This document shows positions 3,870-60,675 of a stretch of 64,000 bases of DNA, piece by piece. Made by a program: the position numbers and the translations under genes. Origin of the DNA: a virus; the IMG/VR virus record IMGVR_UViG_3300045988_117831; one strand, written 5' to 3'. How positions within the stretch are numbered: the stretch's first letter is position 1; each line of letters opens with the position of its first letter. The notes under the pieces were generated by a model. The model worked only from the letters and a program-made list of their open reading frames with translations, was not told the DNA's origin and searched no databases.

Positions 3870-4490
3870 ATGAAAGAGCAAGAGCTTGAAATCCCGGAAT
3901 ACTTGAAAGAGAACGCGCCGGGCGAAATCGACTATTTTGGCGTCATGGATGAAATGGCGGTTGAAGCCACCGACATCGGCCATCGACTGCTGAACCTGGT
4001 GGACAAGGCTTCGCAGCTGGACGTCGAAATCCTCGATCTTCAAAAGGCGCTGGCCGAAAAGGAAGAGGAGCTGAAAACCCTCAAGCGCAACACCATTCCG
4101 GAGCTGCTGGAGGAGCTTGGTCAAAAGACCACTACTCTGGCTGACGGTCGCACGGTCAAAGTCGAGCCGAAGGCCATCATTTCCGTCAAAGAAGAGAACA
4201 AATCGAAGTTCTGGAAGTGGCTGGAAGAAACCGACAACGACGGCATCATCAAGACCAAGGTTCTGGCCGAATTCGGTCGCGGCGAAATGGAAGATGCGAA
4301 GAAGGCGGCCGAGGCTATCATTGAGGCCGGCTATGACGCCACCATCAACCGCGATGTCCACTACCAGACCCTCCAGGCGTTCGGTCGCGAGTATTTGGAG
4401 AAGGGCGAAGAGCTGCCAGATTTCATCGGCGTGCACGAATACAAAGAGGCCAAAATCACGAAACCGAAGGTGAAAAAGAGCAAATCTTAA
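3870..4490 (+). CDS. coiled-coil Lys/Glu-rich protein, Siphovirus-Gp157-like architecture (recombination-module accessory?)
   Basis: GGAGG SD sits 5 nt upstream of the ATG at 3870; the ORF-track M at 3858 is a TTG. There is an N-terminal coiled coil and a basic C-terminus. It lies next to a putative annealing/ssDNA-binding gene. Confidence 0.45.
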   Translation: MKEQELEIPEYLKENAPGEIDYFGVMDEMAVEATDIGHRLLNLVDKASQLDVEILDLQKALAEKEEELKTLKRNTIPELLEELGQKTTTLADGRTVKVEPKAIISVKEENKSKFWKWLEETDNDGIIKTKVLAEFGRGEMEDAKKAAEAIIEAGYDATINRDVHYQTLQAFGREYLEKGEELPDFIGVHEYKEAKITKPKVKKSKS

Positions 4491-4502
4491 TATGTAATTT
4501 GC

Positions 4503-4530
4503 TTTACTTAGTTGCAACTTCCGTTATTAT
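4503..4530 (+). promoter_or_regulatory. sigma70-like promoter of the conserved TTTACT family (TTTACT-16 nt-TATTAT)
   Basis: TGCTTTACTT box plus TATTAT, about 45 nt upstream of the ATG at 4579. Same -35 box as eight other copies in the window. Confidence 0.5.
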
Positions 4531-4578
4531 AAACCCACAGTTAGCGATAACTGAAATTCGACAAACAAGGAGCCTAAC

Positions 4579-34801: not shown

Positions 34802-34862
34802 GAGATTCAAACATATACATCAGATTAACAGTTGCAACTAATCAGTTATGAGAAAATAATTC

Positions 34863-34891
34863 TTTACGGGAACTTTTCGGCAGATTAGACT
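34863..34891 (+). promoter_or_regulatory. TTTACG-17-TAGACT promoter (TTTACT-family variant) for the + block starting at 34919
   Basis: CTTTACG -35 box, 17-nt spacer. Confidence 0.4.
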
Positions 34892-34918
34892 CTAATTATC
34901 AACCAATGGAGATTAAAC

Positions 34919-35320
34919 ATGAATACTCTTTTGCCAATCGTACATATCGTGTTGAAAGACGGCGAAGTTCTGGGCGTATTCGATTGCGACAAATCGGCAA
35001 GATTGTTTCGCGACATGAAAGGCGGCGTGCTGGATTCCTGGATGGTGGAATCGCAGAACAGCTCGCGTTCACGCCTCGTCACGAAAGAAAGCTATGAAGT
35101 CGGTGATCACGTCATATACCTGGACGAGCACGGAGAAGGACACGGCAAGGTTCTGGCGGTTGAGCCACGAGGCGAGCGTGCTGTCGGCGGACGGGAGCTG
35201 TACAACCTATATCAAATCAGCAGCGACGATCCGTCCGTGGAGATTTGGATGCTCGACGCAGACATCATCGGCATTTATCCCGACGAAAAGCGCTTTACTC
35301 CTGGCGAGCAGATGGAATAG
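34919..35320 (+). CDS. hypothetical protein (133 aa)
   Basis: GGAG SD; first gene of the + block. Confidence 0.55.
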   Translation: MNTLLPIVHIVLKDGEVLGVFDCDKSARLFRDMKGGVLDSWMVESQNSSRSRLVTKESYEVGDHVIYLDEHGEGHGKVLAVEPRGERAVGGRELYNLYQISSDDPSVEIWMLDADIIGIYPDEKRFTPGEQME

Positions 35321-35351
35321 ACTCTGCTCATCAACTAAAGAGGGTGACGAA

Positions 35352-36731: not shown

Positions 36732-36892
36732 GTACGACTACAACGACGGCGCTGAGCATGGGTTCAAGATCAATAGCGACATTTATTGATTGTCTTCGAC
36801 CCGACGAACGGTAGTGAGAAATCTCTACCGTTTTTCCATTTCTGGCGTATAGTCAACTCATCGAAACGAACTTTCCAAACAGGAGAATCGAC

Positions 36893-38530: not shown

Positions 38531-38968
38531 ATGAAAAAGTTCTGTGTCGACATCACTAATGGTCTGGCCGGCTTCATCATCTGGGGCGGCGCAATCGTCC
38601 TGGCTGCTACCGTCTTCGTCATCGGCCCGCTGGCCCTCCTGCTGACCGGCGCCTGGGTTGTGTGTACGTCCGTAGTGTTCGCCCTCTGGTTCGCCGTCGC
38701 CGGCATCTACGAAGAGTCGCAAAAGCAGACCGAGTATCTTAAATCCCTGGTGTCGCTCCAGGCGTGTGAACGCGGCATCGGCTACGGCCCAGGAGACGCC
38801 GGTTGCAGCGCTAGCGCTCCGGCCGTTCCCGTAGAGCCCAAGCTCAGCCATCCCAAACTGAAGCCGGGCGCACAGCTCGCGGCCGCTGTCTTGTTCTTTG
38901 CCGCCCTCATCCTCTTGCTGGTAGCAGGTGATTGGATCTGGAATTTCTTCCAGTCGATGCCGAAATAG
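38531..38968 (+). CDS. membrane protein, 3-4 TM (145 aa)
   Basis: GAAGGAA SD; hydrophobic segments at the N-terminus, centre and C-terminus. Confidence 0.55.
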   Translation: MKKFCVDITNGLAGFIIWGGAIVLAATVFVIGPLALLLTGAWVVCTSVVFALWFAVAGIYEESQKQTEYLKSLVSLQACERGIGYGPGDAGCSASAPAVPVEPKLSHPKLKPGAQLAAAVLFFAALILLLVAGDWIWNFFQSMPK

Positions 38969-38981
38969 TGGAAGAAAGTGC

Positions 38982-39010
38982 TTTACTTCCATTCTGAATG
39001 AAGGCAGAAT
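38982..39010 (+). promoter_or_regulatory. TTTACT-17-CAGAAT promoter of the conserved family, plus conserved leader
   Basis: GTGCTTTACTTCCATTCTGAATG is identical over 23 nt to the copy at 43098. Confidence 0.5.
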
Positions 39011-39054
39011 AGCTCCATTGAAATGCGAAACCCTTCAGACAAAAGGAACCGACC

Positions 39055-39834
39055 ATGGCCGACCAGAACGAATTCACCCCTGAAGCCATCGAGAAGGCGA
39101 AAGACCGCATCCGCAAACTGACCGCCATGGCAGCCGACTCTTCCAGTCCGCACGAAGCGGCCATCGCAGCCGAGCGTGTGAAGAAGTTGAAGGACAAATA
39201 TGACCTTCACGACTTCGAAGCTACCGGCGAGATTCGCGAAGAGTTCGATGAGCAAATTGCCACTCGTTACTATTCCGCAATCCCGAACTGGATGAAGTTT
39301 TTCTCAGTGGCCGTGGCGACGTACAATGACTGCATCATGGATTTCGCCGGTGGCATCAACAACCACAGAGCATCGGCTAAGGCATCCAGGAGCGCCCGCG
39401 ACGGAAGCACTACCAAGCGCTGGGGTCATGCCGTACGCTTCAAAGGCTACAAGTCGGACGTTGAGCTGGCGGTGAACATGTTCAACTCCCTGGTCGAGGC
39501 CATTGATCGTCTGTGTCGGGAGTATCAGAAGGCGCAAGGGTACGAACGTTTCAACGTAAAGGTTGCCGCGCAATTCAAACTGGCCGCGACCCAGGAAATC
39601 AGCTATCGCCTTCAGTCCATAACCAGGAAGCGTATGGAGCTGGTATCTTCTGCCGGAACGTCTCTGGTTGTGGTGAAGGAAGCTGCGGTTCACGAACATT
39701 TCGGCGATCCTGGCTACAAGAAGTCCAATGTTACGAAGCTCATGCGTCTGGACGATAGCGACGGTCGGCGCGCCTTCAATGCAGGGGCCAATGCCGGGCG
39801 CAATATGGAAATCGTTCGGTCGGTGGAGGATTGA
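39055..39834 (+). CDS. DUF2786-like N-terminal domain protein (259 aa)
   Basis: ..AIEKAKDRIRKLTAMAADSSSPHEAAIAAERVKKL.. matches the DUF2786 helix pattern. Confidence 0.6.
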   Translation: MADQNEFTPEAIEKAKDRIRKLTAMAADSSSPHEAAIAAERVKKLKDKYDLHDFEATGEIREEFDEQIATRYYSAIPNWMKFFSVAVATYNDCIMDFAGGINNHRASAKASRSARDGSTTKRWGHAVRFKGYKSDVELAVNMFNSLVEAIDRLCREYQKAQGYERFNVKVAAQFKLAATQEISYRLQSITRKRMELVSSAGTSLVVVKEAAVHEHFGDPGYKKSNVTKLMRLDDSDGRRAFNAGANAGRNMEIVRSVED

Positions 39835-40278: not shown

Positions 40279-40662
40279 ATGAAGAAAGAACCGATTCGAC
40301 TCAGCTCCATGGCCTCGGCCCGTGCCATCGATGCGGAATTCGCATTCCGGATGGACGAGTTCATGGCGCGCGTCGCTAAAGAGCACGAAGCGCTCGCCGC
40401 CCGCGTCGCTAAAGAGCACGAAGCGCTCGCCGCCCGACTGAATGCCGAGCATCTGGTGCTTTGGGACGAAATCCGCGCTGTCGCCGGCCTGAGCGCCACC
40501 GACTTCCCGAACATCTCCATGGCGCACGACACTGCCGATGGGAAGCTCTATGTCATGGATGCCGACGAGCTGGAGCGCGTCCGCCAGGCATGTCCCTGCC
40601 CGGACTGCGAAGCCGCACGCGCCGAAAGCATGCCGTCGCAAGCCAGTGGAGGTATTCACTGA
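40279..40662 (+). CDS. hypothetical protein containing a tandem 11-aa duplication and C-terminal Cys pair (127 aa)
   Basis: AAAGAGA SD; ARVAKEHEALAARVAKEHEALAARL; ..CPCPDC... Confidence 0.5.
   Translation: MKKEPIRLSSMASARAIDAEFAFRMDEFMARVAKEHEALAARVAKEHEALAARLNAEHLVLWDEIRAVAGLSATDFPNISMAHDTADGKLYVMDADELERVRQACPCPDCEAARAESMPSQASGGIH
40369..40434 (+). repeat. perfect 33-bp tandem direct repeat x2 inside the CDS
   Basis: CGCGTCGCTAAAGAGCACGAAGCGCTCGCCGCC twice, in frame. Confidence 0.9.
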
Positions 40663-42679: not shown

Positions 42680-42781
42680 TCTAATCAATCCGGTGTCAGC
42701 AATAGGTCGAGTATATCGACGCCGCAACAGACGGTCGAGCACAACCGTTCGTCGGTGAACATAATTTTATTGTTAATACAC

Positions 42782-42810
42782 TTTACTTCCATTCTGACCA
42801 ACGGCATAAT
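42782..42810 (+). promoter_or_regulatory. TTTACT-17-CATAAT promoter plus conserved leader
   Basis: Conserved family member, upstream of the ATG at 42850. Confidence 0.55.
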
Positions 42811-42849
42811 CTCTTCATCGAAACGAACAAACACCTGGAGGGTAAGACG

Positions 42850-43008
42850 ATGAACGCAAACCAGCAAATAGAAGCATTCTTCCTGGCTCGCAAAGCGGAA
42901 GGGTGCGGCAATAGCAGAGCCTTGGATGCGACCGTCGAGCACTTCGCACAATACAACCCTATGTACGTGCGGACTCACATTCGCCACTGCGCGCTTTGGG
43001 ATACCTAA
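42850..43008 (+). CDS. small hypothetical protein (52 aa)
   Basis: Below the ORF-track size cutoff, but has the promoter, a GGAGGG SD and an open frame. Confidence 0.45.
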   Translation: MNANQQIEAFFLARKAEGCGNSRALDATVEHFAQYNPMYVRTHIRHCALWDT

Positions 43009-43100
43009 TCAACATTCGGATGCGGAAATGCCTTCCATGGGAGGAAATATTCCTGACGGGCATACCGTTCGTCCACTTTGAGAAATATTTCACAATTCTG

Positions 43101-43129
43101 CTTTACTTCCATTCTGAATAGCGTCATAA
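43101..43129 (+). promoter_or_regulatory. TTTACT-17-CATAAT promoter plus conserved leader
   Basis: Closest to the family consensus; leader ..CTCTTCATCGAACGCGAAACACTCCAAAACAGAGGAA.. Confidence 0.55.
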
Positions 43130-43174
43130 TCTCTTCATCGAACGCGAAACACTCCAAAACAGAGGAACGCAGAA

Positions 43175-43321
43175 ATGACCAAATCCCAGATCAACGATCA
43201 AATCCGCTCCGCCAAGATCGCCATCAGCGAGGCAGAAATGGAAGGCCTGCGCGGCCAGGCTATGATCGCCCTGAAAGCTAAGCTGACCACCCTCAAAGCT
43301 CAGTACAAACTCGCCAAATAA
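43175..43321 (+). CDS. small hypothetical protein (48 aa)
   Basis: Promoter, AGAGGA SD and an open frame. Confidence 0.45.
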   Translation: MTKSQINDQIRSAKIAISEAEMEGLRGQAMIALKAKLTTLKAQYKLAK

Positions 43322-43333
43322 GGGGCCAGAAAA

Positions 43334-43636
43334 ATGACTAAGCAGATCAATATCGGCGTCAGCAACTTCGACGAAGCTTTCATCCAGCACATCATCAGCG
43401 GCGGTTTCCTCTTCGATGTCGACGAATATGAAGTCGCAGACCGCATCCTGCTGAATGTGGATGGCGAACCGGCTATCCAGTTCGAACTGAATGCCGAACT
43501 GTGGAACGAAGAGACTCTGGGCATTCCGATGGACATCGACAGTGACGAGTTCGCCGATGAGCTTCAAGATTGGGTCGAGTCTAAGGTAAATTTCGCCTTC
43601 GAAGAGTGGCTGAGCGCGGACGAAGGCGAAGAGTGA
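43334..43636 (+). CDS. acidic hypothetical protein (100 aa)
   Basis: AAGGGG SD. Confidence 0.5.
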   Translation: MTKQINIGVSNFDEAFIQHIISGGFLFDVDEYEVADRILLNVDGEPAIQFELNAELWNEETLGIPMDIDSDEFADELQDWVESKVNFAFEEWLSADEGEE

Positions 43637-43688
43637 TTACGATGCGGCTGGGATGGTCCCGGCCGCGACTTCTTATGAGGATTGTGTT

Positions 43689-44375
43689 ATGTCTAGCATA
43701 GTGTACTTCCAGTACATCACCGGCGCCATTCAGGTTCCTCTGGAAGTCGAAGTGGAGGCCGGCCAGCTGCAAATGGTCAATGTAGAAGTCGATCCTGATG
43801 GCTTCCGCAAATTCTGGCCTATTGCCGATAGTCTCCTCTGGGATCCAGAGGAGTGCAAGTTTCTGCCTCGCTACAAATCCAGATACATGACCGATGCCGC
43901 AGCGTATGCCGACCAGGCAGTGCTCGCCTTCGCAGCCGGCCAGTACTACCTGCGGATGGAGTCGAAGGAAGAGCGTAAAGACCCGGATGACGATCTGCAT
44001 GCGATTGAGCTTTCAGAAATGCGAGAGACGTGCAGAAAGGCGAAAGTCGAAAAGCATCAGCTGGTGCGCGAAAATACTCGCCTTGACGAATGCCTTCAGA
44101 ACTCCATCGCCCGCGAAAACCAGGTTGGCGAGACAAATCGCCAGCTCCAGCTCAGAATCCAGGATTTGGAGGCAGAGCTAGCATCGCAGAAGGCGCTCCG
44201 GGAAGAGCTGGACAAGAGCCTGGAAGGCAGCATCAAGAACGCCAATGCCCAGCACAAGACGGCGTGCGACGCCATGGAGCAGCTTACAAAAGCCAGGAAA
44301 GAAGCCGATTTCTATCGCCTCGGTATGCAGAAAGTAGCGGCTATCGCAAACGCTAAACCTTCTGAGGATAACTGA
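43689..44375 (+). CDS. hypothetical protein with C-terminal coiled coil (228 aa)
   Basis: GAGGAT SD before the ATG at 43689. Confidence 0.5.
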   Translation: MSSIVYFQYITGAIQVPLEVEVEAGQLQMVNVEVDPDGFRKFWPIADSLLWDPEECKFLPRYKSRYMTDAAAYADQAVLAFAAGQYYLRMESKEERKDPDDDLHAIELSEMRETCRKAKVEKHQLVRENTRLDECLQNSIARENQVGETNRQLQLRIQDLEAELASQKALREELDKSLEGSIKNANAQHKTACDAMEQLTKARKEADFYRLGMQKVAAIANAKPSEDN

Positions 44376-44377
44376 AC

Positions 44378-44566
44378 GTGCAGAAATACGCCATGTCCCA
44401 TATCCCTCGCCCAGGAACGCTCCAGTTCGAGTTCGAATGTCTCGCTGCGGCCCACTTCGGCATCAATGATGGCGCCTTATCTATGTCGTCCGATGGCGAG
44501 CGTTACTGCAACGAACACATCGACTGGCTCTGGCGGCAATTCCTGTCTTCAAAAGGTTTCAGATAA
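44378..44566 (+). CDS. small hypothetical protein (62 aa, GTG start)
   Basis: GAGGATAA SD 9 nt upstream. Confidence 0.4.
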   Translation: MQKYAMSHIPRPGTLQFEFECLAAAHFGINDGALSMSSDGERYCNEHIDWLWRQFLSSKGFR

Positions 44567-44580
44567 TCTGAAGAAAATGC

Positions 44581-44609
44581 TTTACTCGATGAGGTGGCTG
44601 AGGTATAGT
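44581..44609 (+). promoter_or_regulatory. TTTACT-17-TATAGT promoter plus conserved leader; -10 embedded in an 8-bp inverted repeat (GATGAGGT..ACCTCATC)
   Basis: Family member with a possible operator. Confidence 0.5.
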
Positions 44610-44651
44610 TACCTCATCGAACGCGAAACACTCCAAAAAGAGGATTGCGAC

Positions 44652-44903
44652 ATGACTAGCTCCAAATGGAACATCGGCAGAAACGACACCATCGCAGTCG
44701 AGGCCGTAAACAGCCGCGAAGATTTCCGCTGGAACGGCAAGGTTCGCGTCATCCACTACAGCGCCGGTCAAATCGTCAACATCATCGAGTTCTATCACCA
44801 CGATCTGGACTGGGCGATCAAGAATTTCGGCATCAAGCTGAAGGCTATCTCCAAAGGCCTGGAAATACTCCACACCTGCTACTTCGGGAAGTATGTCAAG
44901 TGA
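44652..44903 (+). CDS. hypothetical protein (83 aa)
   Basis: AGAGGA SD. Confidence 0.5.
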   Translation: MTSSKWNIGRNDTIAVEAVNSREDFRWNGKVRVIHYSAGQIVNIIEFYHHDLDWAIKNFGIKLKAISKGLEILHTCYFGKYVK

Positions 44904-45100
44904 TCGTCCAATTCGATTCCCAAGAAGAGAAAATCATCAGCCTGAGAACGCTGTCCAAGTATCGTCGCGCCGGTGGCAAGTTCGCGCCGGTGGACGGAAC
45001 TCAGACCGGTCCCTGGGGTCCAGTAGACAACGCGCTCTGGGCGAAGTTCGAAGCCGAAGTCAGGGCAGAATACATCCGCAAACAGGAGCGTAAAGCATGA
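44900..45100 (+). CDS. hypothetical protein (66 aa, GTG start coupled via GTGA)
   Basis: Open frame with translational-coupling geometry. Confidence 0.4.
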   Translation: MIVQFDSQEEKIISLRTLSKYRRAGGKFAPVDGTQTGPWGPVDNALWAKFEAEVRAEYIRKQERKA

Positions 45101-45312
45101 TCAAGCAAGACCTGTACAAGCAGATCGCCTTCGCGGCGATTGGCTCCGGCATCAAGATGTTCGTCAAGCTGTACTGCAACGATACCACCCTGGAAGTCAT
45201 CGGCGTCGAGGAAGCCCACATTGATGGGACGATTCGTCTGCGTTACACTGGCTACGCAGATGGAGTTGGCTTTAACTTCTTCGCCGACGAAATTGACGTG
45301 GTGATGGTATGA
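45097..45312 (+). CDS. hypothetical protein (71 aa)
   Basis: ATGA overlap. Confidence 0.5.
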   Translation: MIKQDLYKQIAFAAIGSGIKMFVKLYCNDTTLEVIGVEEAHIDGTIRLRYTGYADGVGFNFFADEIDVVMV

Positions 45313-45518
45313 GCAGGAAGCCGGCACCAAGCGGCTGGGCGCAACCCGGCAATGCTCGCAAAGTCCACTTCTTCACGTCGGACGGCCGCAGTCTGTGCAA
45401 GCGCTGGCTGTATCTCGGCAAGACTTACAGCGAGCTGCCCGACCTGGAAATCACCTGCGCGATCTGCGAGAAGAAGCGCCAGAGTCCTTTCGAGAAATAC
45501 TGCGACACCATTCTCTAA
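45309..45518 (+). CDS. hypothetical Cys-containing protein (69 aa)
   Basis: ATGA overlap; ..CAICEKK.. Confidence 0.45.
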   Translation: MSRKPAPSGWAQPGNARKVHFFTSDGRSLCKRWLYLGKTYSELPDLEITCAICEKKRQSPFEKYCDTIL

Positions 45519-45549
45519 CTTTCAAATCTTCCAAAACCGAGGAACAGTT

Positions 45550-46194
45550 ATGAAACTCTACCATGCAAAAGTCAGCCCTCCATCCTTCTATCGCCACAAC
45601 CAGACCGACGAAGAGCGGAAAGCCTTGGAAGCGGAATATGTCAGCAAGCTCCATGTTCTACTGGGGAACCTGGAAGGCGTAACAATCGGGAATCCTGGTG
45701 AGCGGAACTGGGAGCCGTCCACCTGGAGCAACGACGTTCCCGTGGTGTGTAATGAAATCGGCCTGGGTCGTCTGACCGCTTCAGCCTGGGATCTGGACAA
45801 GGACTATCCGTATACCATCATCAGCCTGGTCCTTCTCTGGGACGACATTGACCCGGAAGCTGCTCTGCGACCCATGCTGGAGCGTCTGGAGCTGGCCGCG
45901 AGCCGGTTGGCCGGTATGTCCGTAAGCTACATCAACCAACCGGAGATGGTGAGTGGAATCGAGGGTTGGAACTCACTCACAGGATCGGCCATACCTGGTC
46001 CGAATCTCCAGAACGTCAACCGTCTGCTGCTCAAGGAAGACTGCTGCACGGACGAACTCCAGTCTGCCCTGGACGCAGGATGGCGCCTTCTCGCCGTGTG
46101 TCCTCAGGAAGCGCGCCGGCCCGACTACATCCTGGGTCGGTTCGATCCCGTCCCGCCGACCGGACCGCGTGGCGCGGCCAGGAGCATCGATTAA
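45550..46194 (+). CDS. hypothetical protein (214 aa)
   Basis: GAGGAA SD before the ATG at 45550. Confidence 0.5.
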   Translation: MKLYHAKVSPPSFYRHNQTDEERKALEAEYVSKLHVLLGNLEGVTIGNPGERNWEPSTWSNDVPVVCNEIGLGRLTASAWDLDKDYPYTIISLVLLWDDIDPEAALRPMLERLELAASRLAGMSVSYINQPEMVSGIEGWNSLTGSAIPGPNLQNVNRLLLKEDCCTDELQSALDAGWRLLAVCPQEARRPDYILGRFDPVPPTGPRGAARSID

Positions 46195-46521
46195 ATGACC
46201 ATGGTAGGCCCGGCTGGCAAGCGCTATTGGCTCCGATATGAAACCAGATACTGGGAGTGTCTTGACGGACAAACCCTGCGGCTGGTCTTCGTCATCAACG
46301 GTCGCCGGTATGAGGTCAATCGACGAGTGAATGTCGACATCCTGTCCAGTCGGCGCAGGTTCGAATCTTTCGGCCGAGTCCTGGCAAGGATGGAAATCAG
46401 CCTGTGGTTCGCAGTGTGCGAGCAAGAAGGGCCATGGCGCGGTAGCGTAGCCATAAGCGATACCGCACTTTGGTTCCACCTGACGGGAGAATTGGTACAC
46501 AAATGCTTTACTCGGCGGTGA
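46195..46521 (+). CDS. hypothetical Arg/Trp-rich protein (108 aa)
   Basis: Abuts the previous stop. Confidence 0.4.
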   Translation: MTMVGPAGKRYWLRYETRYWECLDGQTLRLVFVINGRRYEVNRRVNVDILSSRRRFESFGRVLARMEISLWFAVCEQEGPWRGSVAISDTALWFHLTGELVHKCFTRR

Positions 46522-46536
46522 GAATCAGGGCATAAT
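46507..46536 (+). promoter_or_regulatory. TTTACT-18-CATAAT promoter plus leader with a CCGGCT..AGCCGG hairpin
   Basis: Family member; overlaps the 3' end of the previous ORF. Confidence 0.5.
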
Positions 46537-46586
46537 CTCTTCACCGGCTGAGAAGCCGGACCAGAAGTCCAAAAAGGAATCTCGAA

Positions 46587-46721
46587 ATGTACAGAACTCC
46601 CTCGTCCAAGTTCACTTTCATCTGCAACGGCCTCGCCCAGAATACTGAAGTGACGGTCCTGCTCCGGACGCAGAAACCGGAAGACGTATGGTGGTGGACG
46701 AAGCTCCAGCTGCGAACCTGA
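46587..46721 (+). CDS. small hypothetical protein (44 aa)
   Basis: AAAGGAA SD. Confidence 0.4.
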   Translation: MYRTPSSKFTFICNGLAQNTEVTVLLRTQKPEDVWWWTKLQLRT

Positions 46722-46730
46722 TTCGCATCC

Positions 46731-47117
46731 ATGAACGCAGCAATCCGCGCCGTCGCCGTACCATTAGCATCCTCGACGTGGACGCAGTGTCCATCCTTCA
46801 CAAACGTTAATCCATCGGCGCGGCTGGGATCGTCCTGGCCGCGCCTTCTCATAGGGTGTATGATGGCCAAAATATTGATGGCCTGTGAGTTGCTCGTCGG
46901 CGACGAAATACTCACTCATGTTGACGTCAACGATCCCGTTCGGCGTCGGGCCATAGTCCTGCGATCTGGAGCTGCGCCGCACAGCAAAGTAAGCATCGAA
47001 GTCTCGGCACTCATCGGCGCTGACTGGGTGGACTTCAAGCTCAAGTTGGCCAGGGACTATCCTACCATCTGCTTACATGACATCGACCCGATCCGCCCTC
47101 GCGGCGCTGCCCAATAG
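46731..47117 (+). CDS. hypothetical protein (128 aa); strand assignment uncertain
   Basis: An antisense ORF 46541-46915 of similar length exists; neither has strong signals. Confidence 0.3.
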   Translation: MNAAIRAVAVPLASSTWTQCPSFTNVNPSARLGSSWPRLLIGCMMAKILMACELLVGDEILTHVDVNDPVRRRAIVLRSGAAPHSKVSIEVSALIGADWVDFKLKLARDYPTICLHDIDPIRPRGAAQ

Positions 47118-47125
47118 GAGAACAC

Positions 47126-47347
47126 CATGGCAAAAGTTGTAAGAGTTGATGAGTTGAAACTGGCGACGAAATTCTGATTAAGCTCAGGGCGGATTCCGCA
47201 GCCAGGAACAAGGCAATTGTCCTTTCTGTCGAATGCTGGCGCGACGAAATCACCCTGGAGCTTACCTGCCCGGCCGGCGACTACTGGGAAGACTGGCGCA
47301 GTAAATATCGCGCATATGACAAAGTCGTTCTGTTGAAGCGCGACTAA
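47126..47347 (+). pseudogene. small gene apparently interrupted by a frameshift (ATG frame stops at 47176; open -1 frame continues to 47347)
   Basis: AGGAGA SD plus ATG at 47126, then MAKVVRVDELKLATKF-stop. The -1 frame reads ..ETGDEILIKLRADSAARNKAIVLSVECWRDEITLELTCPAGDYWEDWRSKYRAYDKVVLLKRD without a start codon of its own and ends at the terminator. Confidence 0.35.
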
Positions 47348-47356
47348 CAACAACAA

Positions 47357-47385
47357 GCCTCTGCCGAGTCGCAGAGGCTTTCTCA
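47357..47385 (+). terminator. intrinsic terminator
   Basis: GCCTCTGC-cgagtc-GCAGAGGC followed by TTTCTC. Confidence 0.65.
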
Positions 47386-47712
47386 TTGGAGGGCAGCTTA
47401 TGTCCGATAAAAGAACAAAGTGGCCATTACTGGGTGACGGTCAGTCCGACCGATCTGTCTAGCGCGTCGGCCGCGCAGCGACTCTGCGAAACGATCCGTC
47501 TGAACATGACGCGAGGCGTCGCATCCTACATCAAGTTCTACGGCTCGAAAGGCGAAGACCTGGTGACGCGAGTCATTCCGCACCAGTGCGAACTATTCGT
47601 CAATGACGAGTCGGGCACGAATCGGCGTCGAACGGCGATGATGATCGAATACGTCCGCTTCAAAGTTCCGGCCGGTATGTCTCTGGTCGAACACCAAAAG
47701 CAACCTTATTGA
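47386..47712 (+). CDS. hypothetical protein; start uncertain (ORF-track TTG at 47386 lies in the terminator)
   Basis: The open frame is coupled to the downstream gene (GAGGAG SD for 47723), but no good start codon or SD of its own was found. Confidence 0.3.
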   Translation: MEGSLCPIKEQSGHYWVTVSPTDLSSASAAQRLCETIRLNMTRGVASYIKFYGSKGEDLVTRVIPHQCELFVNDESGTNRRRTAMMIEYVRFKVPAGMSLVEHQKQPY

Positions 47713-47722
47713 GGAGCGAGCC

Positions 47723-48418
47723 ATGCTGTACATCTGGGAAGACCAAGATATCCACCACAACATCGAAACTCTGGCTTTCGTCGGCGAGTCCAGGTCCAAC
47801 TACACAATCATCGGATTCGAATTCGGTGATCTGTTCGCCATCGCCAAAGAGTCCACTGGTCAGATCGTGGTAAGCCCGCTGACTCGGCAAGGGATGGCGG
47901 AATGGCTCACCATGAACGGCCATATTCCTGCCGAGATCATCAGCCACGGACCCGGCAACCACAAAAACCCGTATGTCTGGGCGGACTCCATCGTCCTGAA
48001 CAATCTGCCGACCCATCCGAACATGCGCTGCGTTACCACTCCATTCACGGGCTTCGATCCAGCAGAACCGGGTGGCGACAAGACTGCCATAGGTCAAGTC
48101 ATCAAGGACAACCGATCCGCCGAAATGTTCGGCGACAATCCGTCGCAGCGGTCGCAGCGGTCCTTTGGCGGCATAGCGCCGAGTCTTCCTGATCTGCCCG
48201 ATCTTCCGGAGCCGCCCAGGGCGCCGATGGCTCCTCCAGGCCTGCCGGTTCCGCCCGCGCCTCATGCGCCAAAAGCGCCTCCAGCTCCGCAGGTAAGCAG
48301 GCAGTCGGAATCGCTGGCGCTTCGGTCGGGTGCGATCCCTTCCAGCCCGGCGCCCGCATCGGACAACGACAGGCCCGGCGATCCGCCCATCGAGCCTATC
48401 ACAGTCCCGACTTTCTGA
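47723..48418 (+). CDS. hypothetical protein with Pro-rich C-terminal region (231 aa)
   Basis: GAGGAG SD; ..LPDLPDLPEPPRAPMAPPGLPVPPAPHAPKAPPAPQ.. Confidence 0.55.
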   Translation: MLYIWEDQDIHHNIETLAFVGESRSNYTIIGFEFGDLFAIAKESTGQIVVSPLTRQGMAEWLTMNGHIPAEIISHGPGNHKNPYVWADSIVLNNLPTHPNMRCVTTPFTGFDPAEPGGDKTAIGQVIKDNRSAEMFGDNPSQRSQRSFGGIAPSLPDLPDLPEPPRAPMAPPGLPVPPAPHAPKAPPAPQVSRQSESLALRSGAIPSSPAPASDNDRPGDPPIEPITVPTF

Positions 48419-48516
48419 CATCACCCCAACGCCAACAAACACCGCAGCCTGCTCTGCGGTGTTTTCACATCAGACAACCGTTCGTCGGCTTTGTGATCAA
48501 TCTGATGAAATAGATG

Positions 48517-48545
48517 TAGACACGCAGCATCGACCTAGGCATAAT
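48517..48545 (+). promoter_or_regulatory. TAGACA-17-CATAAT promoter plus conserved leader (variant -35)
   Basis: The -10 and leader CATAATCTCTT..TTCCAAAACAGAGGA are conserved. Confidence 0.45.
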
Positions 48546-48607
48546 CTCTTTCAACGGGGCGACAAACTGAAGCCCAAACGAAATCTTCCAAAACAGAGGA
48601 TCGCAAA

Positions 48608-49225
48608 ATGACCAACTCCATCAAAACCTTCGGCGACATCCAGAACGCAGAAATGAAAGAACTGGTCGCCTTCTACAACGCTCACAACGCCGATGCGACT
48701 GTCAAGCGTTTCTCTGACCGCAAGACTGCTGAGCGTCGCTGCCTCGCCATCCTGAATGCTCTGCCGGCCGAGGAAGAAGCCTTTCAGGAAGAGGAAGCCC
48801 CGGCCAAAGTCTACAAAACCCGCACTTCCAAGAAGAAGAAGGAAGAAGAGAAGGCCGAGGAAGAGAATCTGAAGCCTGAAGAAGAGATCACCGAAGAGGA
48901 AGCGCTGGAAGAAATCCGGAAGATGCGCGAAGAGGCCAAGAACGCTCCGGAGAAAGCCAAAGAGTCCAAAGACCTGTCGGCAGCCATCGCCAACTCCTGG
49001 AAAGACCCGGAAGTTTCCAAGAAACGCACTCAGCGCCATGGCGTGGCTGTGACTGTCAAAGGCAAGCGCGGCGAGTTCCGGTCCACCAACGCAGCATTCA
49101 TCGAGTTCGGCCTGCCTTCTTCGAAACACATCCGCTTCCGCATGCAGCTGAAGGCGGCTGGCAAAATGACTTTCGAGCACGAAGGCGTCAAATACAACTT
49201 CGAAATCATCGAAGCTGGCGAATAA
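48608..49225 (+). CDS. hypothetical protein with central KE-rich acidic linker and conserved C-terminal domain (205 aa)
   Basis: AGAGGA SD; last + strand early gene. Confidence 0.55.
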   Translation: MTNSIKTFGDIQNAEMKELVAFYNAHNADATVKRFSDRKTAERRCLAILNALPAEEEAFQEEEAPAKVYKTRTSKKKKEEEKAEEENLKPEEEITEEEALEEIRKMREEAKNAPEKAKESKDLSAAIANSWKDPEVSKKRTQRHGVAVTVKGKRGEFRSTNAAFIEFGLPSSKHIRFRMQLKAAGKMTFEHEGVKYNFEIIEAGE

Positions 49226-56647: not shown

Positions 56648-56691
56648 TTAATGTATCCTCTGTTTTGGAGGGCAGTACAGGCGGCGGCTCT

Positions 56692-56720
56692 AGTATCGGC
56701 CACTTTCCTGCCGAAGTAAA
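56692..56720 (-). promoter_or_regulatory. TTTACT-family promoter plus conserved CTCCAAAACAGAGGA leader on the - strand
   Basis: Reverse complement reads CTTTACTTCGGCAGGAAAGTGGCCGATACT..CTCCAAAACAGAGGATACATTA-ATG. Confidence 0.5.
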
Positions 56721-56815
56721 GTTGGATTAAATTCGCTCGCTTTGGCGAGTCAGCTGATAGTATACTCTTCCTGCGCAGAGGTAAAGCATAACTGTACGTT
56801 ATAAAGGAACATTCG

Positions 56816-59586: not shown

Positions 59587-60588
59587 ATGATTCCTGATCA
59601 GAAAGTAATCATCGTAGGTGCCGGACTCGCCGGACTGATCGCCGCGCATCGCTTTCCTCAAGCCCAAATCATCGACGCGGCGACGCCGGAGAACAAGGAG
59701 CGCCACAACGCACTTCTGCGATTCCGCTCGCCAGTGATTGGCCAACTCACCGGCATCCCGTTCCGCAAAGTCACTGTACACAAAGCTATCTACATCGACG
59801 GCGAGTTCATTTCCCAGCCGCGCATCGACCACTGCAACATGTACTCCAGGAAAGTAACGGGCGGCCTGTCGGACCGGTCCATCTGGAATCTGGCGACTGA
59901 AAAGCGTTGGATCGCACCGGCCGACTACTATGAGCAGCTGGTGGCTAAGCTTGCGAATCGTATCACTTGGAGCCGTCCTTTCGACGCCTCTTTCTTCCAG
60001 TATCTTCGCCGGCAAGATGACCACGTGAATATCATCAGCACCGCGCCGTTCCGCGCCAATCTGGCTGCGGCAGGGCTGGACCTGGGAATCGACCCGTCAT
60101 TCGGTGAAGGAACCTCCATCATCGTGAGTCGATACAAGCTCTCCATCCCCTGTGATGTCTTCCAGACCGTGTATTTCCCTGGTCCTAAAGTGGGAACGTT
60201 TCGAGCGTCCATCACCGGTGATACTCTGATCGTCGAATCCATCACTAAAGGGATAGTGGAGACTTTAGATGGTAAAATCGAAACCATCGAATGGGACAGC
60301 GACTGGGATATGGATTACGTTTGCGCGGCCTTCGGCATCAGAAGGAAACAGCTCATCGAAGATGGCGAGCCGACCATCCAGACCAAAGGCAAAATCATTC
60401 CGCTCGGTCGCGACGAGCGCGAATCCATGATCTGGAATCTCACCCATGAGGCTGGCATCTTCTCGCTCGGCCGGTTCGCTACCTGGCGCAACGTCCTTCT
60501 GGATGATCTGGTTTCGGACATGGACGTCATCGAGCGCCTGATGACTTCTTCGTCTTATCAGAAGGCCAAGAAAATGTTCGTGAAGTAA
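59587..60588 (+). CDS. FAD/NAD(P)-binding Rossmann-fold protein
   Basis: AAGGGA SD; N-terminal VIIVGAGLAGLIAA dinucleotide-binding motif. Confidence 0.6.
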   Translation: MIPDQKVIIVGAGLAGLIAAHRFPQAQIIDAATPENKERHNALLRFRSPVIGQLTGIPFRKVTVHKAIYIDGEFISQPRIDHCNMYSRKVTGGLSDRSIWNLATEKRWIAPADYYEQLVAKLANRITWSRPFDASFFQYLRRQDDHVNIISTAPFRANLAAAGLDLGIDPSFGEGTSIIVSRYKLSIPCDVFQTVYFPGPKVGTFRASITGDTLIVESITKGIVETLDGKIETIEWDSDWDMDYVCAAFGIRRKQLIEDGEPTIQTKGKIIPLGRDERESMIWNLTHEAGIFSLGRFATWRNVLLDDLVSDMDVIERLMTSSSYQKAKKMFVK

Positions 60589-60601
60589 TTTACAAAAGTG
60601 C

Positions 60602-60630
60602 TTTACTTCTGGATCAGGTGGGCGTAATAT
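60602..60630 (+). promoter_or_regulatory. TTTACT-17-TAATAT promoter plus conserved leader
   Basis: Family member upstream of the ATG at 60676. Confidence 0.5.
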
Positions 60631-60675
60631 TCCCTCATCGAAACGCGAACCCCTTCAACCAAAAGGAATCGACAA

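What the first reader, a model, noticed from the sequence alone, without database searches (positions are those of the whole stretch)
42775..48610. Family of more than nine near-identical promoter plus 5'-leader cassettes (TGCTTTACTT-N16-18-CATAAT-CTCTTCATCGAACGCGAAACACTCCAAAACAGAGGA)
Copies at 4503, 38982, 42782, 43101, 44581, 46507, 48517, 60602 (+ strand) and 56720-56692 (- strand) share a -35 box, a -10 box and a 35-40 nt CA-rich leader ending in the SD. Variants occur at 34863 and 31064. Two copies (38973-39000 and 43098-43120) are identical over 23 nt. Some copies carry extra palindromes around the -10 box (44590-44620) or in the leader (46540-46560). This much conservation of the transcribed leader, not just the promoter boxes, suggests either a common post-transcriptional regulator (RNA-binding protein, RNase site, translational enhancer) or recent duplication of a mobile promoter cassette seeding new early genes.
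Basis: seen in the sequence. Interest (0 to 1): 0.58.

Follow-up and report, generated by a model that had tools for sequence, protein, structure and literature searches.

The report
Repeated phage early promoter-leader cassettes
These repeats are the already-mapped host-polymerase early promoters of a PB1-like Pseudomonas phage together with their short conserved mRNA leaders, and comparison with relatives shows they also act as recombination points where small early genes are gained, lost or swapped.

Summary
The window is almost a whole Pbunavirus (PB1-like) Pseudomonas aeruginosa phage genome. The flagged repeats are real: CTTTAC-N28-YCATYGAA occurs 5 times against 0.06 expected. They are the sigma-70 early promoters of the genus. 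Transcription starts mapped by ONT-cappable-seq in the relative 14-1 (Putzeys 2024) fall on the A that opens the conserved "leader".

Only six copies share the full cassette. Three more share only the ribosome-site module. The 31064 "variant" has no support.

The leader (+1 to ATG, 33-39 nt in the six full copies) is A-rich and mostly unstructured. It is as conserved as the -35 and -10 boxes among paralogues. Among orthologues in 12 genomes it is constrained like non-synonymous sites (14% variable columns against 34% at third codon positions).

Relatives show hybrid cassettes, about 105-bp direct cassette repeats flanking inserted ORFs, five cargo alleles at one site, and a 1.4-kb deletion between two cassettes. 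This behaviour resembles the T4 PeSL cassettes.

No Hfq/Crc motif, RsmA architecture or Rfam family is present. A shared regulator of the leader is not excluded, but nothing supports it.

The promoters are already known. The conserved leader and the cassette-mediated shuffling are a modest addition.

The parts
42757..42849 (+). Cassette 1. A/T-rich upstream region (86% AT at -60..-39), -35 CACTTTACTT (42779-42788), -10 CATAAT (42805-42810), inferred TSS A at 42817, 33-nt leader ATCGAAACGAAC...GGAGGG. It drives the cargo ORF 42850-43008.
   Evidence: The promoter half continues from the terminase-side flank exactly as 14-1 P001 does, and P001 was validated in vivo. 14-1 has no separate orthologue of this copy, so no TSS is mapped for it.
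42850..43008 (+). Variable cargo ORF of 52 aa (phrog_34182, unknown function) lying between two cassettes. It is absent from 14-1, R26 and PAP8 and is replaced by other ORFs in Ab27-type, cory-type and E215 genomes.
43077..43174 (+). Cassette 2. -35 TGCTTTACTT (43099-43108), -10 CATAAT (43125-43130), TSS 43137, 38-nt leader ATCGAACGCGAAACACTCCAAAACAGAGGAACGCAGAA. It drives the gp02-like and gp01-like ORFs (43175-43321, 43334-43636).
   Evidence: 14-1 P001 (TSS 707) maps to 43137. Also.
44556..44651 (+). Cassette 3. -35 TGCTTTACTC (44578-44587), -10 TATAGT (44604-44609), TSS 44616, 36-nt leader. A 14-15-bp inverted repeat at 44586-44620 runs from just after the -35 to +5.
   Evidence: 14-1 P049 maps to 44616. 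Palindrome. Hybrid A/B origin.
46483..46586 (+). Partial member. -35 GCTTTACTCG, -10 CATAAT (46531-46536), expected TSS 46543. The 14-1 P048 call maps 9 nt further on, at 46552, in the loop of the 5' hairpin 46544-46559. The RBS module TCCAAAAAGGA is at 46568.
48493..48607 (+). Partial member. -35 TAGACA (48517-48522), -10 CATAAT, TSS 48553, 55-nt leader that shares only the RBS module CTTCCAAAACAGAGGAT (from 48586). A terminator-like hairpin lies upstream at about 48437-48466.
   Evidence: 14-1 P043 maps to 48553 with 100% identity. Also.
38957..39054 (+). Full cassette. -35 TGCTTTACTT (38979-38988), -10 CAGAAT, TSS 39017, 38-nt leader ATTGAAATGCGAAACCCTTCAGACAAAAGGAACCGACC. It drives the DUF2786/DUF7168 protein 39055-39834.
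   Evidence: 14-1 P006 maps to 39017. Also.
36800..36892 (+). A terminator hairpin plus T-run (36806-36835) has a 3' arm that forms the -35. -10 TATAGT (36848-36853), TSS 36860, 33-nt leader ATCGAAACGAACTTTCCAAACAGGAGAATCGAC. It drives the DUF6011 protein 36893-37825, the homologue of 14-1 gp12.
   Evidence: 14-1 P009 and intrinsic terminator T004. Hairpin -15.4 kcal/mol, z -4.9. Orthologue conservation.
60577..60675 (+). Full cassette in the replication-gene region. -35 TGCTTTACTT (60599-60608), -10 TAATAT, TSS 60637, 39-nt leader ATCGAAACGCGAACCCCTTCAACCAAAAGGAATCGACAA.
   Evidence: 14-1 P028 maps to 60637. Also.
56648..56744 (-). Partial member. -35 ACTTTACTT, -10 GATACT, TSS 56684. The leader shares only the RBS module CCTCCAAAACAGAGGAT. 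A second promoter, P037, lies upstream at 56750-56788.
   Evidence: 14-1 P038 (validated in vivo) and P037 map here with 100% identity. Also.
4477..4578 (+). Sigma-70 promoter with the family's -35 (TGCTTTACT), TSS 4537. Its leader is unrelated and carries a 5' hairpin.
   Evidence: 14-1 P024, 100% identity. Fold z -2.5.
34838..35351 (+). Two further early promoters with related -35 boxes and the ATCAAC start but short (21-22 nt) unrelated leaders. P012 has TSS 34898 and P010 has TSS 35330.
45529..45550 (+). RBS module TTCCAAAACCGAGGA-N6-ATG inside an operon, with no promoter and no mapped TSS. It shows that the RBS module is separable from the promoter and initial transcribed sequence (ITS) module.

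Best explanation
The repeats are the host sigma-70-dependent early promoters of a Pbunavirus, each fused to the short 5'UTR of the first gene of an early transcription unit. Six copies form a tight family of expression cassettes about 100 nt long. Each carries, in order:
- an A/T-rich, UP-like region (-60..-39)
- an extended -35 (TGCTTTACTT)
- a 17-nt spacer
- the -10 box (CATAAT or TATAGT)
- the discriminator CTCYTC
- the +1 A
- the initial transcribed sequence TCGAAACG(CG)AAAC
- an A/C-rich unstructured linker
- a Shine-Dalgarno sequence 6-9 nt before the ATG

Shown here: host RNA polymerase starts at the first base of the conserved leader in the relative 14-1. Two family promoters there are active without phage factors. 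The leader is under purifying selection. The copies recombine with one another.

Inferred: the cassette is a compact, self-sufficient "promoter + initiation sequence + ribosome site" that gives immediate strong expression of small host-takeover genes. Its sequence uniformity is kept partly by that function and partly by homologous exchange between copies. The same exchange inserts, deletes and replaces small early ORFs between cassettes. In that respect it works like the PeSL cassettes of T4-like phages and like morons.
For: Identity. The region is 99% identical to Pseudomonas phage vB_PaeM_1648, and about 300 Pbunavirus records match it.

TSS. Table S3 of Putzeys et al. lists 14-1 P001, P006, P009, P028, P043, P049, P038, P024, P010 and P012. 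Their 50-nt upstream sequences are these boxes. In the 14-1 sequence each of P001, P006, P009, P028 and P049 is the A of CTC-A-TCGAAACG. They map at 82-100% identity to window 43137, 39017, 36860, 60637 and 44616. P001 and P038 drove msfGFP in E. coli and P. aeruginosa without phage.

Non-randomness. 5 hits against 0.06 expected. The leader HMM hits occur only behind promoters.

Constraint among paralogues. Mean pairwise identity is 0.71 for the -35, 0.31 for the spacer, 0.66 for the -10 and 0.73 for +1..+17.

Constraint among orthologues (8 cassettes, 12 genomes). Leader columns are variable at 14% (pi 0.056). Third codon positions are variable at 34% (pi 0.152; Fisher p = 2e-9). Codon positions 1+2 and the -35 and -10 boxes are each at 11%.

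Other properties. Upstream AT content is 67% against 44% for the genome. The full-cassette leaders are unstructured, with z from -0.8 to +0.5.

Recombination.
(i) Beside the terminase promoter, five genomes carry a 590-bp two-ORF insert flanked by direct repeats of about 105 bp, each consisting of the cassette. 14-1, R26 and PAP8 have exactly the single recombinant cassette, with the junction near +20. The same site holds five different cargo alleles.
(ii) At the 44616 site, R26, Ab27, E215 and Ka2 have tandem cassettes A and B. 14-1 and the window have a single A-upstream/B-downstream hybrid.
(iii) A 64,427-bp IMG/VR contig lacks window 43182-44577. There the 43101 and 44581 cassettes are fused into one mosaic copy.
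(iv) Homology breakpoints against ten genomes cluster at 42825-42858, 43099, 44542-44557 and 44620-44658.

Distribution. The cassette occurs only in Pbunavirus records (299 records, 979 places). It occurs in no bacterial genome.
Against: No TSS or time-course data exist for this phage itself. The starts are transferred from 14-1, and the 42817 start rests on promoter homology alone.

What the invariant +1..+10 ATCGAAACG does is not shown. Promoter escape, mRNA 5'-end properties or a binding site would all fit the conservation.

The recombination evidence is comparative, from 12-16 genomes, and is not observed directly. Indels are expected to sit in intergenic DNA anyway. About 5 of about 14 distinct breakpoints lie in cassettes, which is clearly enriched against all positions but only weakly against gene boundaries.

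Orthologue conservation could be inflated by recombination between co-infecting phages.

Unlike PeSLs, most copies have no adjoining terminator.
Confidence: 0.75

Rival explanations
1. The conserved leader is the RNA target of one shared post-transcriptional regulator. Candidates are host Hfq/Crc or RsmA, a phage RegA-like translational repressor, or a RegB-like nuclease. Such a regulator would switch the early regulon on or off together.
For: +1..+17 is as conserved as the promoter hexamers among paralogues. The leader is constrained among orthologues. It is A-rich and single-stranded, so it is accessible. The RBS module YTCCAAAA(C)AGAGGA recurs at 8 gene starts.
Against: No leader contains AAnAAnAA. 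The longest A-R-N triplet (ARN) run is 2-3, and each leader has a single GGA, which is the SD. This rules out the Hfq/Crc and two-site RsmA architectures. There is no conserved fold and no Rfam match. The 5' module and the RBS module occur independently, and several early promoters (P043, P038, P048, P024) lack the 5' module. +1..+20 lies inside the RNA polymerase footprint (established knowledge), so DNA-level constraint is enough to explain it. No candidate regulator was identified.
Confidence: 0.2
2. The region from -10 to about +20 is a DNA operator for a phage or host protein that shuts off, or re-targets RNA polymerase at, early promoters. One candidate is a factor acting with the RNAP-alpha-binding protein gp12 of 14-1.
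For: The invariant CTC-ATCGAAACG straddles the start site. The 44616-type cassettes carry a 14-bp inverted repeat from just after the -35 to +4, which is a typical position for an operator. UP-like A/T tracts would make these promoters sensitive to an alpha-subunit-binding factor. According to the Putzeys paper, gp12 of 14-1 is thought to interact with RNAP alpha.
Against: The common motif ATCGAAACGCGAAAC has no dyad symmetry or direct repeat. The palindrome is confined to one cassette lineage, and 8 of the 11 distinct sequences carry a G.T pair in it. These are tolerated in RNA but break DNA symmetry. No binding protein is known.
Confidence: 0.1
3. The leader similarity is only a relic of recent duplication plus gene conversion. 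There is no selection on the transcribed part beyond the Shine-Dalgarno sequence.
For: The copies clearly recombine. The gp02 orthologue carries leader type ACACTCCAAAACAGAGGA in some genomes and ACCCTTCAAACAAAAGGAAG in others. The window's two cassettes at 43137 and 44616 both have the 1-nt-shorter ATCGAACGCG, unlike most orthologues.
Against: Among paralogues the spacer has decayed to 0.31 identity while +1..+17 stays at 0.73. Duplication or conversion alone would not produce that difference. Orthologous leaders vary 2.4-fold less than synonymous sites. At the 36860 cassette both flanks are highly diverged while the cassette is nearly invariant.
Confidence: 0.1

Closest known systems
Sigma-70-like promoters of Pseudomonas phage 14-1 mapped by ONT-cappable-seq (Putzeys et al., microLife 2024, PMC10914365; Table S3 in bioRxiv 10.1101/2023.10.13.562163)
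   Same: These are the same elements at orthologous positions, with the same boxes, and the TSS falls on the first base of the leader. P001 and P038 were shown to be active in E. coli and P. aeruginosa.
   Different: The paper analysed -50..+1 only. The word 'leader' does not occur in it, and its 'UTR' passages (12 of 17 places viewed) concern terminators and ncRNAs. A full-text search for the leader or cassette sequences found no relevant paper. The window has an extra cassette and cargo ORF (42757-43008) that 14-1 lacks.
PeSL (promoter-early stem-loop) cassettes of T4-like phages (Arbiol et al. 2010, PMC2839356; Comeau et al. 2014, PMC4122927)
   Same: Both are multiple near-identical strong sigma-70-like early promoters clustered among small non-essential ORFs of unknown function. 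In both, insertions, deletions and replacements between close relatives are bounded by the cassettes (for PeSLs; for this phage).
   Different: A PeSL is defined as a promoter plus an effective terminator stem-loop. Here only the 36860 copy overlaps a mapped terminator. The 44616 lineage has a hairpin over the -10 with no T-run, and the other copies have none. Here the repeat also extends into the transcript (ITS, and in part the RBS). Mini-circles were not tested. The phage genus and host are different.
Morons (independently transcribed gene units inserted between phage genes; Hendrix and colleagues, from my own knowledge)
   Same: The inserted units consist of their own promoter, one or two small ORFs, and a GC hairpin after each ORF.
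   Different: Morons are usually described in temperate phages and carry unrelated promoters. Here the promoter is one shared cassette that also supplies the homology for integration and excision.
T4 RegA translational-repressor and RegB nuclease regulons; Pseudomonas Hfq/Crc 'CA motif' targets (from my own knowledge)
   Same: The concept is the same: many early mRNAs share a short A-rich sequence near the ribosome site, which allows co-ordinate control.
   Different: No AAnAAnAA motif and no multi-ARN tract are present. The most conserved block is at the 5' end, not over the SD or AUG. No cognate protein was identified. Membership is not supported.
'Phage promoter' motif of Pseudomonas phage YuA (Ceyssens 2008 as annotated in NC_010116; Putzeys 2024 Table S3)
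   Same: YuA has GCTTTACTTCTTCGG-N8-CACTATACTTCTTC-A(+1). The extended -35 GCTTTACTTC, the TATAMT -10, the pyrimidine-rich discriminator and the A start are almost the same as in the Pbunavirus cassette.
   Different: The phage family is unrelated, the leaders are unrelated, and no promoter-trap activity was reported for YuA (it is annotated as needing a phage cofactor). By contrast 14-1 P001 and P038 are active alone.

Membership tests
Sigma-70-dependent early promoters of Pbunavirus (14-1 class) | -35-like and -10-like hexamers separated by 16-18 bp | tested here: met
   TTTACT-17/18-CATAAT or TATAGT at 42782, 43102, 44581 and 46507; TAGACA-17-CATAAT at 48517.
Sigma-70-dependent early promoters of Pbunavirus (14-1 class) | Primary 5' end (TSS) about 7 nt downstream of the -10 | tested here: met
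   Met by orthology. The published 14-1 TSS fall on the A after CTCYTC and map to window 43137, 44616, 39017, 36860, 60637, 48553, 56684(-) and 4537. They were not measured in this phage, and 42817 has no separate orthologue.
Sigma-70-dependent early promoters of Pbunavirus (14-1 class) | Activity with host RNA polymerase alone | not testable with these tools
   Reported for 14-1 P001, P018, P036 and P038 by fluorescence assay. Not tested for the other copies.
PeSL cassettes (T4-like phages) | Strong sigma-70-like early promoter repeated many times in variable regions rich in small ORFs of unknown function | tested here: met
   All cargo proteins match PHROGs or DUFs of unknown function.
PeSL cassettes (T4-like phages) | Adjoining stem-loop that acts as a transcription terminator | tested here: not met
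   Only the 36860 copy overlaps a mapped intrinsic terminator (14-1 T004). 14-1 has just 14 mapped TTS, and few of them lie next to cassettes. The scan finds no terminator next to 42782, 43101, 39017 or 60602. The 44586-44620 hairpin has no T-run, and 14-1 reads pass through it.
PeSL cassettes (T4-like phages) | Indels and replacements between close relatives bounded by cassette copies | tested here: met
   A 590-bp insert flanked by cassette repeats of about 105 bp, and the single recombinant cassette in other genomes. Tandem against hybrid cassettes. A 1.4-kb inter-cassette deletion. Breakpoint clustering.
PeSL cassettes (T4-like phages) | Formation of cassette-bounded mini-circles | not testable with these tools
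   Needs outward PCR or long-read sequencing of infected cells or lysates.
Hfq/Crc catabolite-repression targets (CA motif) | AAnAAnAA or a run of several A-R-N triplets at or near the ribosome site | tested here: not met
   0 of 12 leaders contain AAnAAnAA, and the longest ARN run is 2-3.
RsmA/CsrA targets | Two or more GGA motifs, at least one in a hairpin loop | tested here: not met
   10 of 12 leaders have a single GGA, which is the SD. One has none, and 46543 has two. No loop presentation was seen.
Any curated RNA family (Rfam 15) | Covariance-model match at the gathering score | tested here: not met
   0 matches in the whole window.

The most novel reading that the evidence does not exclude
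The invariant start-site block CTC-AUCGAAACG(CG)AAAC may be more than a good initiation sequence. It could be a dedicated signal, read as DNA or as the mRNA 5' end, through which the phage or host switches the whole early regulon together. One possible route is the RNAP-alpha-binding gp12 pathway, and another is an unrecognised RNA-binding factor. At the same time the cassettes may act as portable homology arms that circulate small anti-host genes among co-infecting Pbunaviruses, as PeSL-like mini-circles do.
Probability: 0.15. Interest if true: 0.6.

Novelty: new member of a known kind. Interest (0 to 1): 0.3.

Why it matters
Pbunaviruses are among the most widely used therapeutic phages against P. 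aeruginosa, and their early genes are almost all of unknown function.

Three practical uses follow from recognising that these genes sit behind one portable promoter-leader cassette that also serves as the exchange point.
- It gives a simple rule for finding early transcription units and accessory (likely host-takeover or anti-defence) genes in any new isolate.
- It predicts where genomes of this genus will differ, and where engineered inserts can be placed and will be expressed early.
- It supplies compact, strong expression parts independent of phage factors for Pseudomonas synthetic biology.

It also extends the promoter-cassette model of modular shuffling from T4-like phages to an unrelated genus. 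For the biology of regulation it adds little until the role of the +1..+17 block is tested.

Tried and rejected
(1) Scanning IMG/VR with the 15-nt leader core returned 120+ stretches, mostly chance hits in unrelated contigs. It was uninformative about distribution. A 21-nt pattern found only 6 stretches, all consistent with Pbunavirus.

(2) The supplement of the PMC version of Putzeys 2024 is not held. The bioRxiv version supplied Tables S3-S5. Ceyssens 2009, the original PB1-like comparison, is not held. I therefore could not check whether it already noted these intergenic repeats. The JG024 paper says conserved intergenic motifs of unclear function were seen.

(3) SD-sequestering mini-hairpin idea. 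CUCC, CCUU or UUUCC lies about 7 nt upstream and pairs with GAGG, AAGG or GGAGA. The folds are weak (-4 to -8 kcal/mol, z about 0), and any pyrimidine tract pairs with any SD, so I rejected this as evidence.

(4) Hfq/Crc and RsmA motif tests were negative.

(5) The Rfam search was negative.

(6) A search for the leader in 185,579 bacterial and archaeal genomes found nothing.

(7) The covariation test on the 44586-44620 palindrome shows 97% of cells paired. Only one pair changes on both sides, and this is not better than shuffles, so RNA-level versus DNA-level function stays open.

(9) The 31064 "variant" is rejected as a family member.

Full report
WHAT THE WINDOW IS. The flagged region is 99.3% identical to Pseudomonas phage vB_PaeM_1648, and about 300 PB1-like (Pbunavirus) phage records match it. 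The 64-kb window is therefore nearly a whole Pbunavirus genome of about 65-66 kb, in the opposite orientation to the reference phage 14-1 (NC_011703). G+C is 55.6%.

- The exact 36-nt leader quoted in the title occurs once, but the family is clear once it is aligned on the start site.
- CTTTAC-N28-YCATYGAA gives five + strand hits against 0.06 expected from shuffles.
- A profile built from the leader alone (+1 to the SD) finds six copies at E<0.05. These have TSS 36860, 39017, 42817, 43137, 44616 and 60637. All lie directly behind sigma-70-type boxes and none lies elsewhere.
- Three more sites (46507, 48517, 56720-) share only the ribosome-site module YTCCAAAA(C)AGAGGA. That module also occurs once inside an operon, at 45529, with no promoter.
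- 4503, 34863 and 35291 are related promoters with unrelated leaders.
- 31064 is not supported: no TSS is mapped in 14-1 on that strand, and it has no leader and no SD-ATG.
- The longest identical run between two copies is 21 nt.
- The two palindromes are real and strong.

WHAT IT IS.
- Putzeys et al. (microLife 2024) mapped 50 TSS in 14-1 by ONT-cappable-seq and classed 26 as sigma-70-like.
- Their Table S3 lists the upstream 50 nt of P001, P006, P009, P010, P012, P024, P028, P037, P038, P043, P048 and P049, and these are the boxes in question.
- Reading the 14-1 sequence around each TSS shows the start is the A of CTC-A-TCGAAACGCGAAAC. The conserved "leader" therefore begins exactly at +1.
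- The TSS transfer to the window at 82-100% local identity.
- P001 and P038 drove a reporter in E. coli and P. aeruginosa without any phage factor, and P001 was among the strongest.
- The promoter part of the finding is therefore already known.
- That paper analysed only -50..+1. It never uses the word 'leader', and the 'UTR' passages I viewed (12 of 17 places) concern terminators and ncRNAs.
- A full-text search for the cassette sequences found no relevant paper. Ceyssens 2009 could not be read.

ANATOMY. The cassette runs as follows:
- an A/T-rich -60..-39 region (mean 67% AT against 44% for the genome, p<1e-4)
- TGCTTTACTT as the extended -35
- a 17-nt spacer
- CATAAT, TATAGT, CAGAAT or TAATAT as the -10
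- CTCYTC
- +1 A
- TCGAAACG(CG)AAAC
- an A/C-rich linker
- AGAGGA, AAAGGA or AGGAGA as the SD
- 6-9 nt
- the ATG

The 5'UTR is 33-39 nt in the six full copies. Its composition is A 43%, C 26%, G 20%, T 11%.

IS THE LEADER CONSTRAINED.
- Among the six paralogues in the window, mean pairwise identity is 0.71 for the -35, 0.31 for the spacer, 0.66 for the -10, 0.52 for the discriminator and 0.73 for +1..+17. Eight of the first nine transcribed positions are invariant.
- I then compared eight orthologous cassettes in 12 genomes: the window, 14-1, R26, PAC8, cory, 4003, Ab27, E215, Ka2, PaP006, Wadjak2 and PAP8.
- Leader columns are variable at 14% (pi 0.056). This matches codon positions 1+2 (11%) and the two hexamers (11%).
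- Third codon positions are variable at 34% (pi 0.152; Fisher p = 2e-9), and the spacer at 23%.
- At the 36860 cassette both flanks are highly diverged while -50..+45 is nearly invariant.
- The leader is therefore functional sequence and not only a duplication relic.

WHAT THE LEADER IS NOT.
- The six full leaders fold weakly (-4 to -8 kcal/mol) with z-scores from -0.8 to +0.5.
- No Rfam family matches.
- None of 12 leaders has the Hfq/Crc AAnAAnAA motif, and ARN runs are at most 3.
- Ten of the twelve leaders have a single GGA, which is the SD.
- The leader does not occur in any of 185,579 bacterial or archaeal species genomes.
- The 82-nt cassette occurs only in Pbunavirus records of the phage collection: 299 records and 979 places, about three per genome at that threshold.

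THE CASSETTES AS EXCHANGE POINTS.

Site 1 lies beside the divergent terminase promoter.
- 14-1, R26 and PAP8 have one cassette followed by gp02.
- Ab27, PAC8, Ka2, PaP006 and Wadjak2 have a 590-bp insert with two small ORFs, each followed by a GC hairpin.
- That insert is flanked by direct repeats of about 105 bp. Each repeat runs from GACGGTCGAGCAC through the promoter to ...GAAACCC at about +20.
- The single-cassette genomes are exactly the recombinant: left-copy promoter joined to right-copy ribosome site.
- The window has a different cargo here, the 52-aa ORF at 42850-43008. cory and 4003 have another.
- E215 has a fourth cargo behind a leader identical to the window's up to ATGAAC.
- Counting the empty state, that makes five alleles at one site.

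Site 2 is at window 44616.
- R26, Ab27, E215 and Ka2 have two tandem cassettes, A and B, with a 61-aa ORF between them.
- 14-1 has one cassette whose upstream half is A-like and whose downstream half is B-like. The window also has a single cassette with the A-type upstream flank, but its spacer is already B-like.
- PAC8, cory, 4003 and PaP006 have a different gene behind the cassette.

Third event.
- A 64,427-bp IMG/VR contig, the same length as the LBL3 record, lacks window 43182-44577.
- In that contig the 43101 and 44581 cassettes are fused into one mosaic copy.

Other observations.
- Homology breakpoints between the window and ten genomes cluster at 42825-42858, 43099, 44542-44557 and 44620-44658.
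- The gp02 orthologue carries two alternative leader types in different genomes.
- The window's 43137 and 44616 copies both have the 1-nt-shorter ATCGAACGCG. This is consistent with conversion between copies, but I regard it as suggestive only.

MECHANISM.

Shown:
- Host sigma-70 polymerase starts at the first leader base, established in 14-1.
- Two 14-1 promoters carrying the family's -35 (P001, P038) work without phage proteins.
- The leader is constrained.
- The copies recombine.

Inferred:
- The cassette is a compact, self-sufficient early-expression unit.
- The invariant start block probably serves initiation and promoter escape. From memory, strong phage early promoters such as T7 A1 also start AUCGA and lambda PL starts AUC, but I did not test this.
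- The A-rich single-stranded linker probably serves ribosome loading.
- Sequence uniformity is maintained jointly by function and by exchange between copies.
- That exchange is also the route by which small early ORFs come and go.

Alternatives that remain possible are a shared RNA-binding regulator, or a DNA operator linked to early shut-off (for example through the RNAP-alpha-binding gp12, whose homologue itself sits behind the 36860 cassette). Nothing tested supports either.

COMPARISON WITH KNOWN SYSTEMS.
- The elements are members of the published 14-1 sigma-70 promoter class.
- They work like PeSLs of T4-like phages in being repeated strong early promoters that bound indels among ORFans.
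- They fail the defining PeSL feature of an adjoining terminator stem-loop. Only the 36860 copy overlaps a mapped terminator (14-1 T004). The 44616 lineage has a hairpin over the -10 without a T-run. The other copies have none.
- Unlike PeSLs, the repeat includes the start of the transcript.
- The inserted units resemble morons.

VERDICT. This is a real feature, correctly read as promoters plus leaders. The promoter part is already published for a close relative. The conserved leader and the cassette-mediated shuffling are a modest, useful extension and are not a surprise to a phage specialist.

Noticed in passing
L133 (phage YuA, NC_010116) TSS 2914, 7758, 22676, 29094, 31134; compare window 42779-42817 and 43099-43137: The 'phage-specific' promoter motif of the unrelated siphophage YuA is GCTTTACTTCTTCGG-N8-CACTATACTTCTTC-A. 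It shares the extended -35 GCTTTACTTC, a similar -10, the pyrimidine discriminator and the A start with the Pbunavirus cassette. YuA's promoters are annotated as needing a phage cofactor, whereas 14-1 P001 and P038 are active alone. The leaders are unrelated.
   Followed up: partly
window 44586-44620; L123 9899-9933 and equivalents in L124-L132: A 14-15-bp inverted repeat runs from just after the -35 to +4/+5 and encloses the -10 (-21.9 kcal/mol, z -6.2). It is conserved in all 16 copies of this cassette lineage, with 97% of cells paired. One G-C to A-U exchange is seen, and 8 of the 11 distinct sequences carry a G.U pair. There is no T-run and no TTS is mapped in 14-1, so whether it is an operator or an RNA hairpin stays unresolved.
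   Followed up: partly
window 36806-36835: A terminator hairpin plus T-run corresponds to the mapped 14-1 intrinsic terminator T004. Its 3' arm forms the -35 of the 36860 promoter, so this is a true terminator-promoter composite. The stem differs from 14-1 by compensating changes.
   Followed up: partly
window 43643-43667 and 46815-46850: Two GC-rich hairpins after small ORFs carry GCTGGGAT in or near the loop. This is the 'CTGGG' second promoter motif of 14-1, whose P047 TSS maps to 46830 inside the hairpin. These 5' ends could be processing sites rather than starts.
   Followed up: no
window 46587-46721 (and the 46688-46810 ORF): The first gene behind the 46543 promoter is 44 aa here and matches only residues 1-36 of the 74-residue phrog_5267 profile. 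14-1 gp82 is 225 nt. This may be a frameshift or a truncated gene in this phage.
   Followed up: no
window about 40385-40450: An in-frame tandem duplication of about 33 bp (CGCGTCGCTAAAGAGCACGAAGCGCTCGCCGCC, two copies) lies inside an early ORF. It is visible in the sequence and appears as twin hairpin hits in the terminator scan.
   Followed up: no
L066 (IMG/VR contig of 64,427 bp) against window 43182-44577: A relative has lost four early genes (homologues of gp02, gp01, gp90 and gp89) through fusion of two cassettes. These genes are therefore dispensable.
   Followed up: yes
window 56684-56788, both strands: Three mapped promoters of 14-1 (P036 on one strand, P037 and P038 on the other) overlap within about 100 bp. 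They form a divergent early control region between the helicase-side and primase-side gene blocks.
   Followed up: no
window 46543 against 46552: The 14-1 TSS call for P048 lies 9 nt downstream of the position expected from the -10, in the loop of the 5' hairpin, and was not classed as sigma-70 by the authors. It is likely a processed or mis-called 5' end of a transcript starting at 46543.
   Followed up: no
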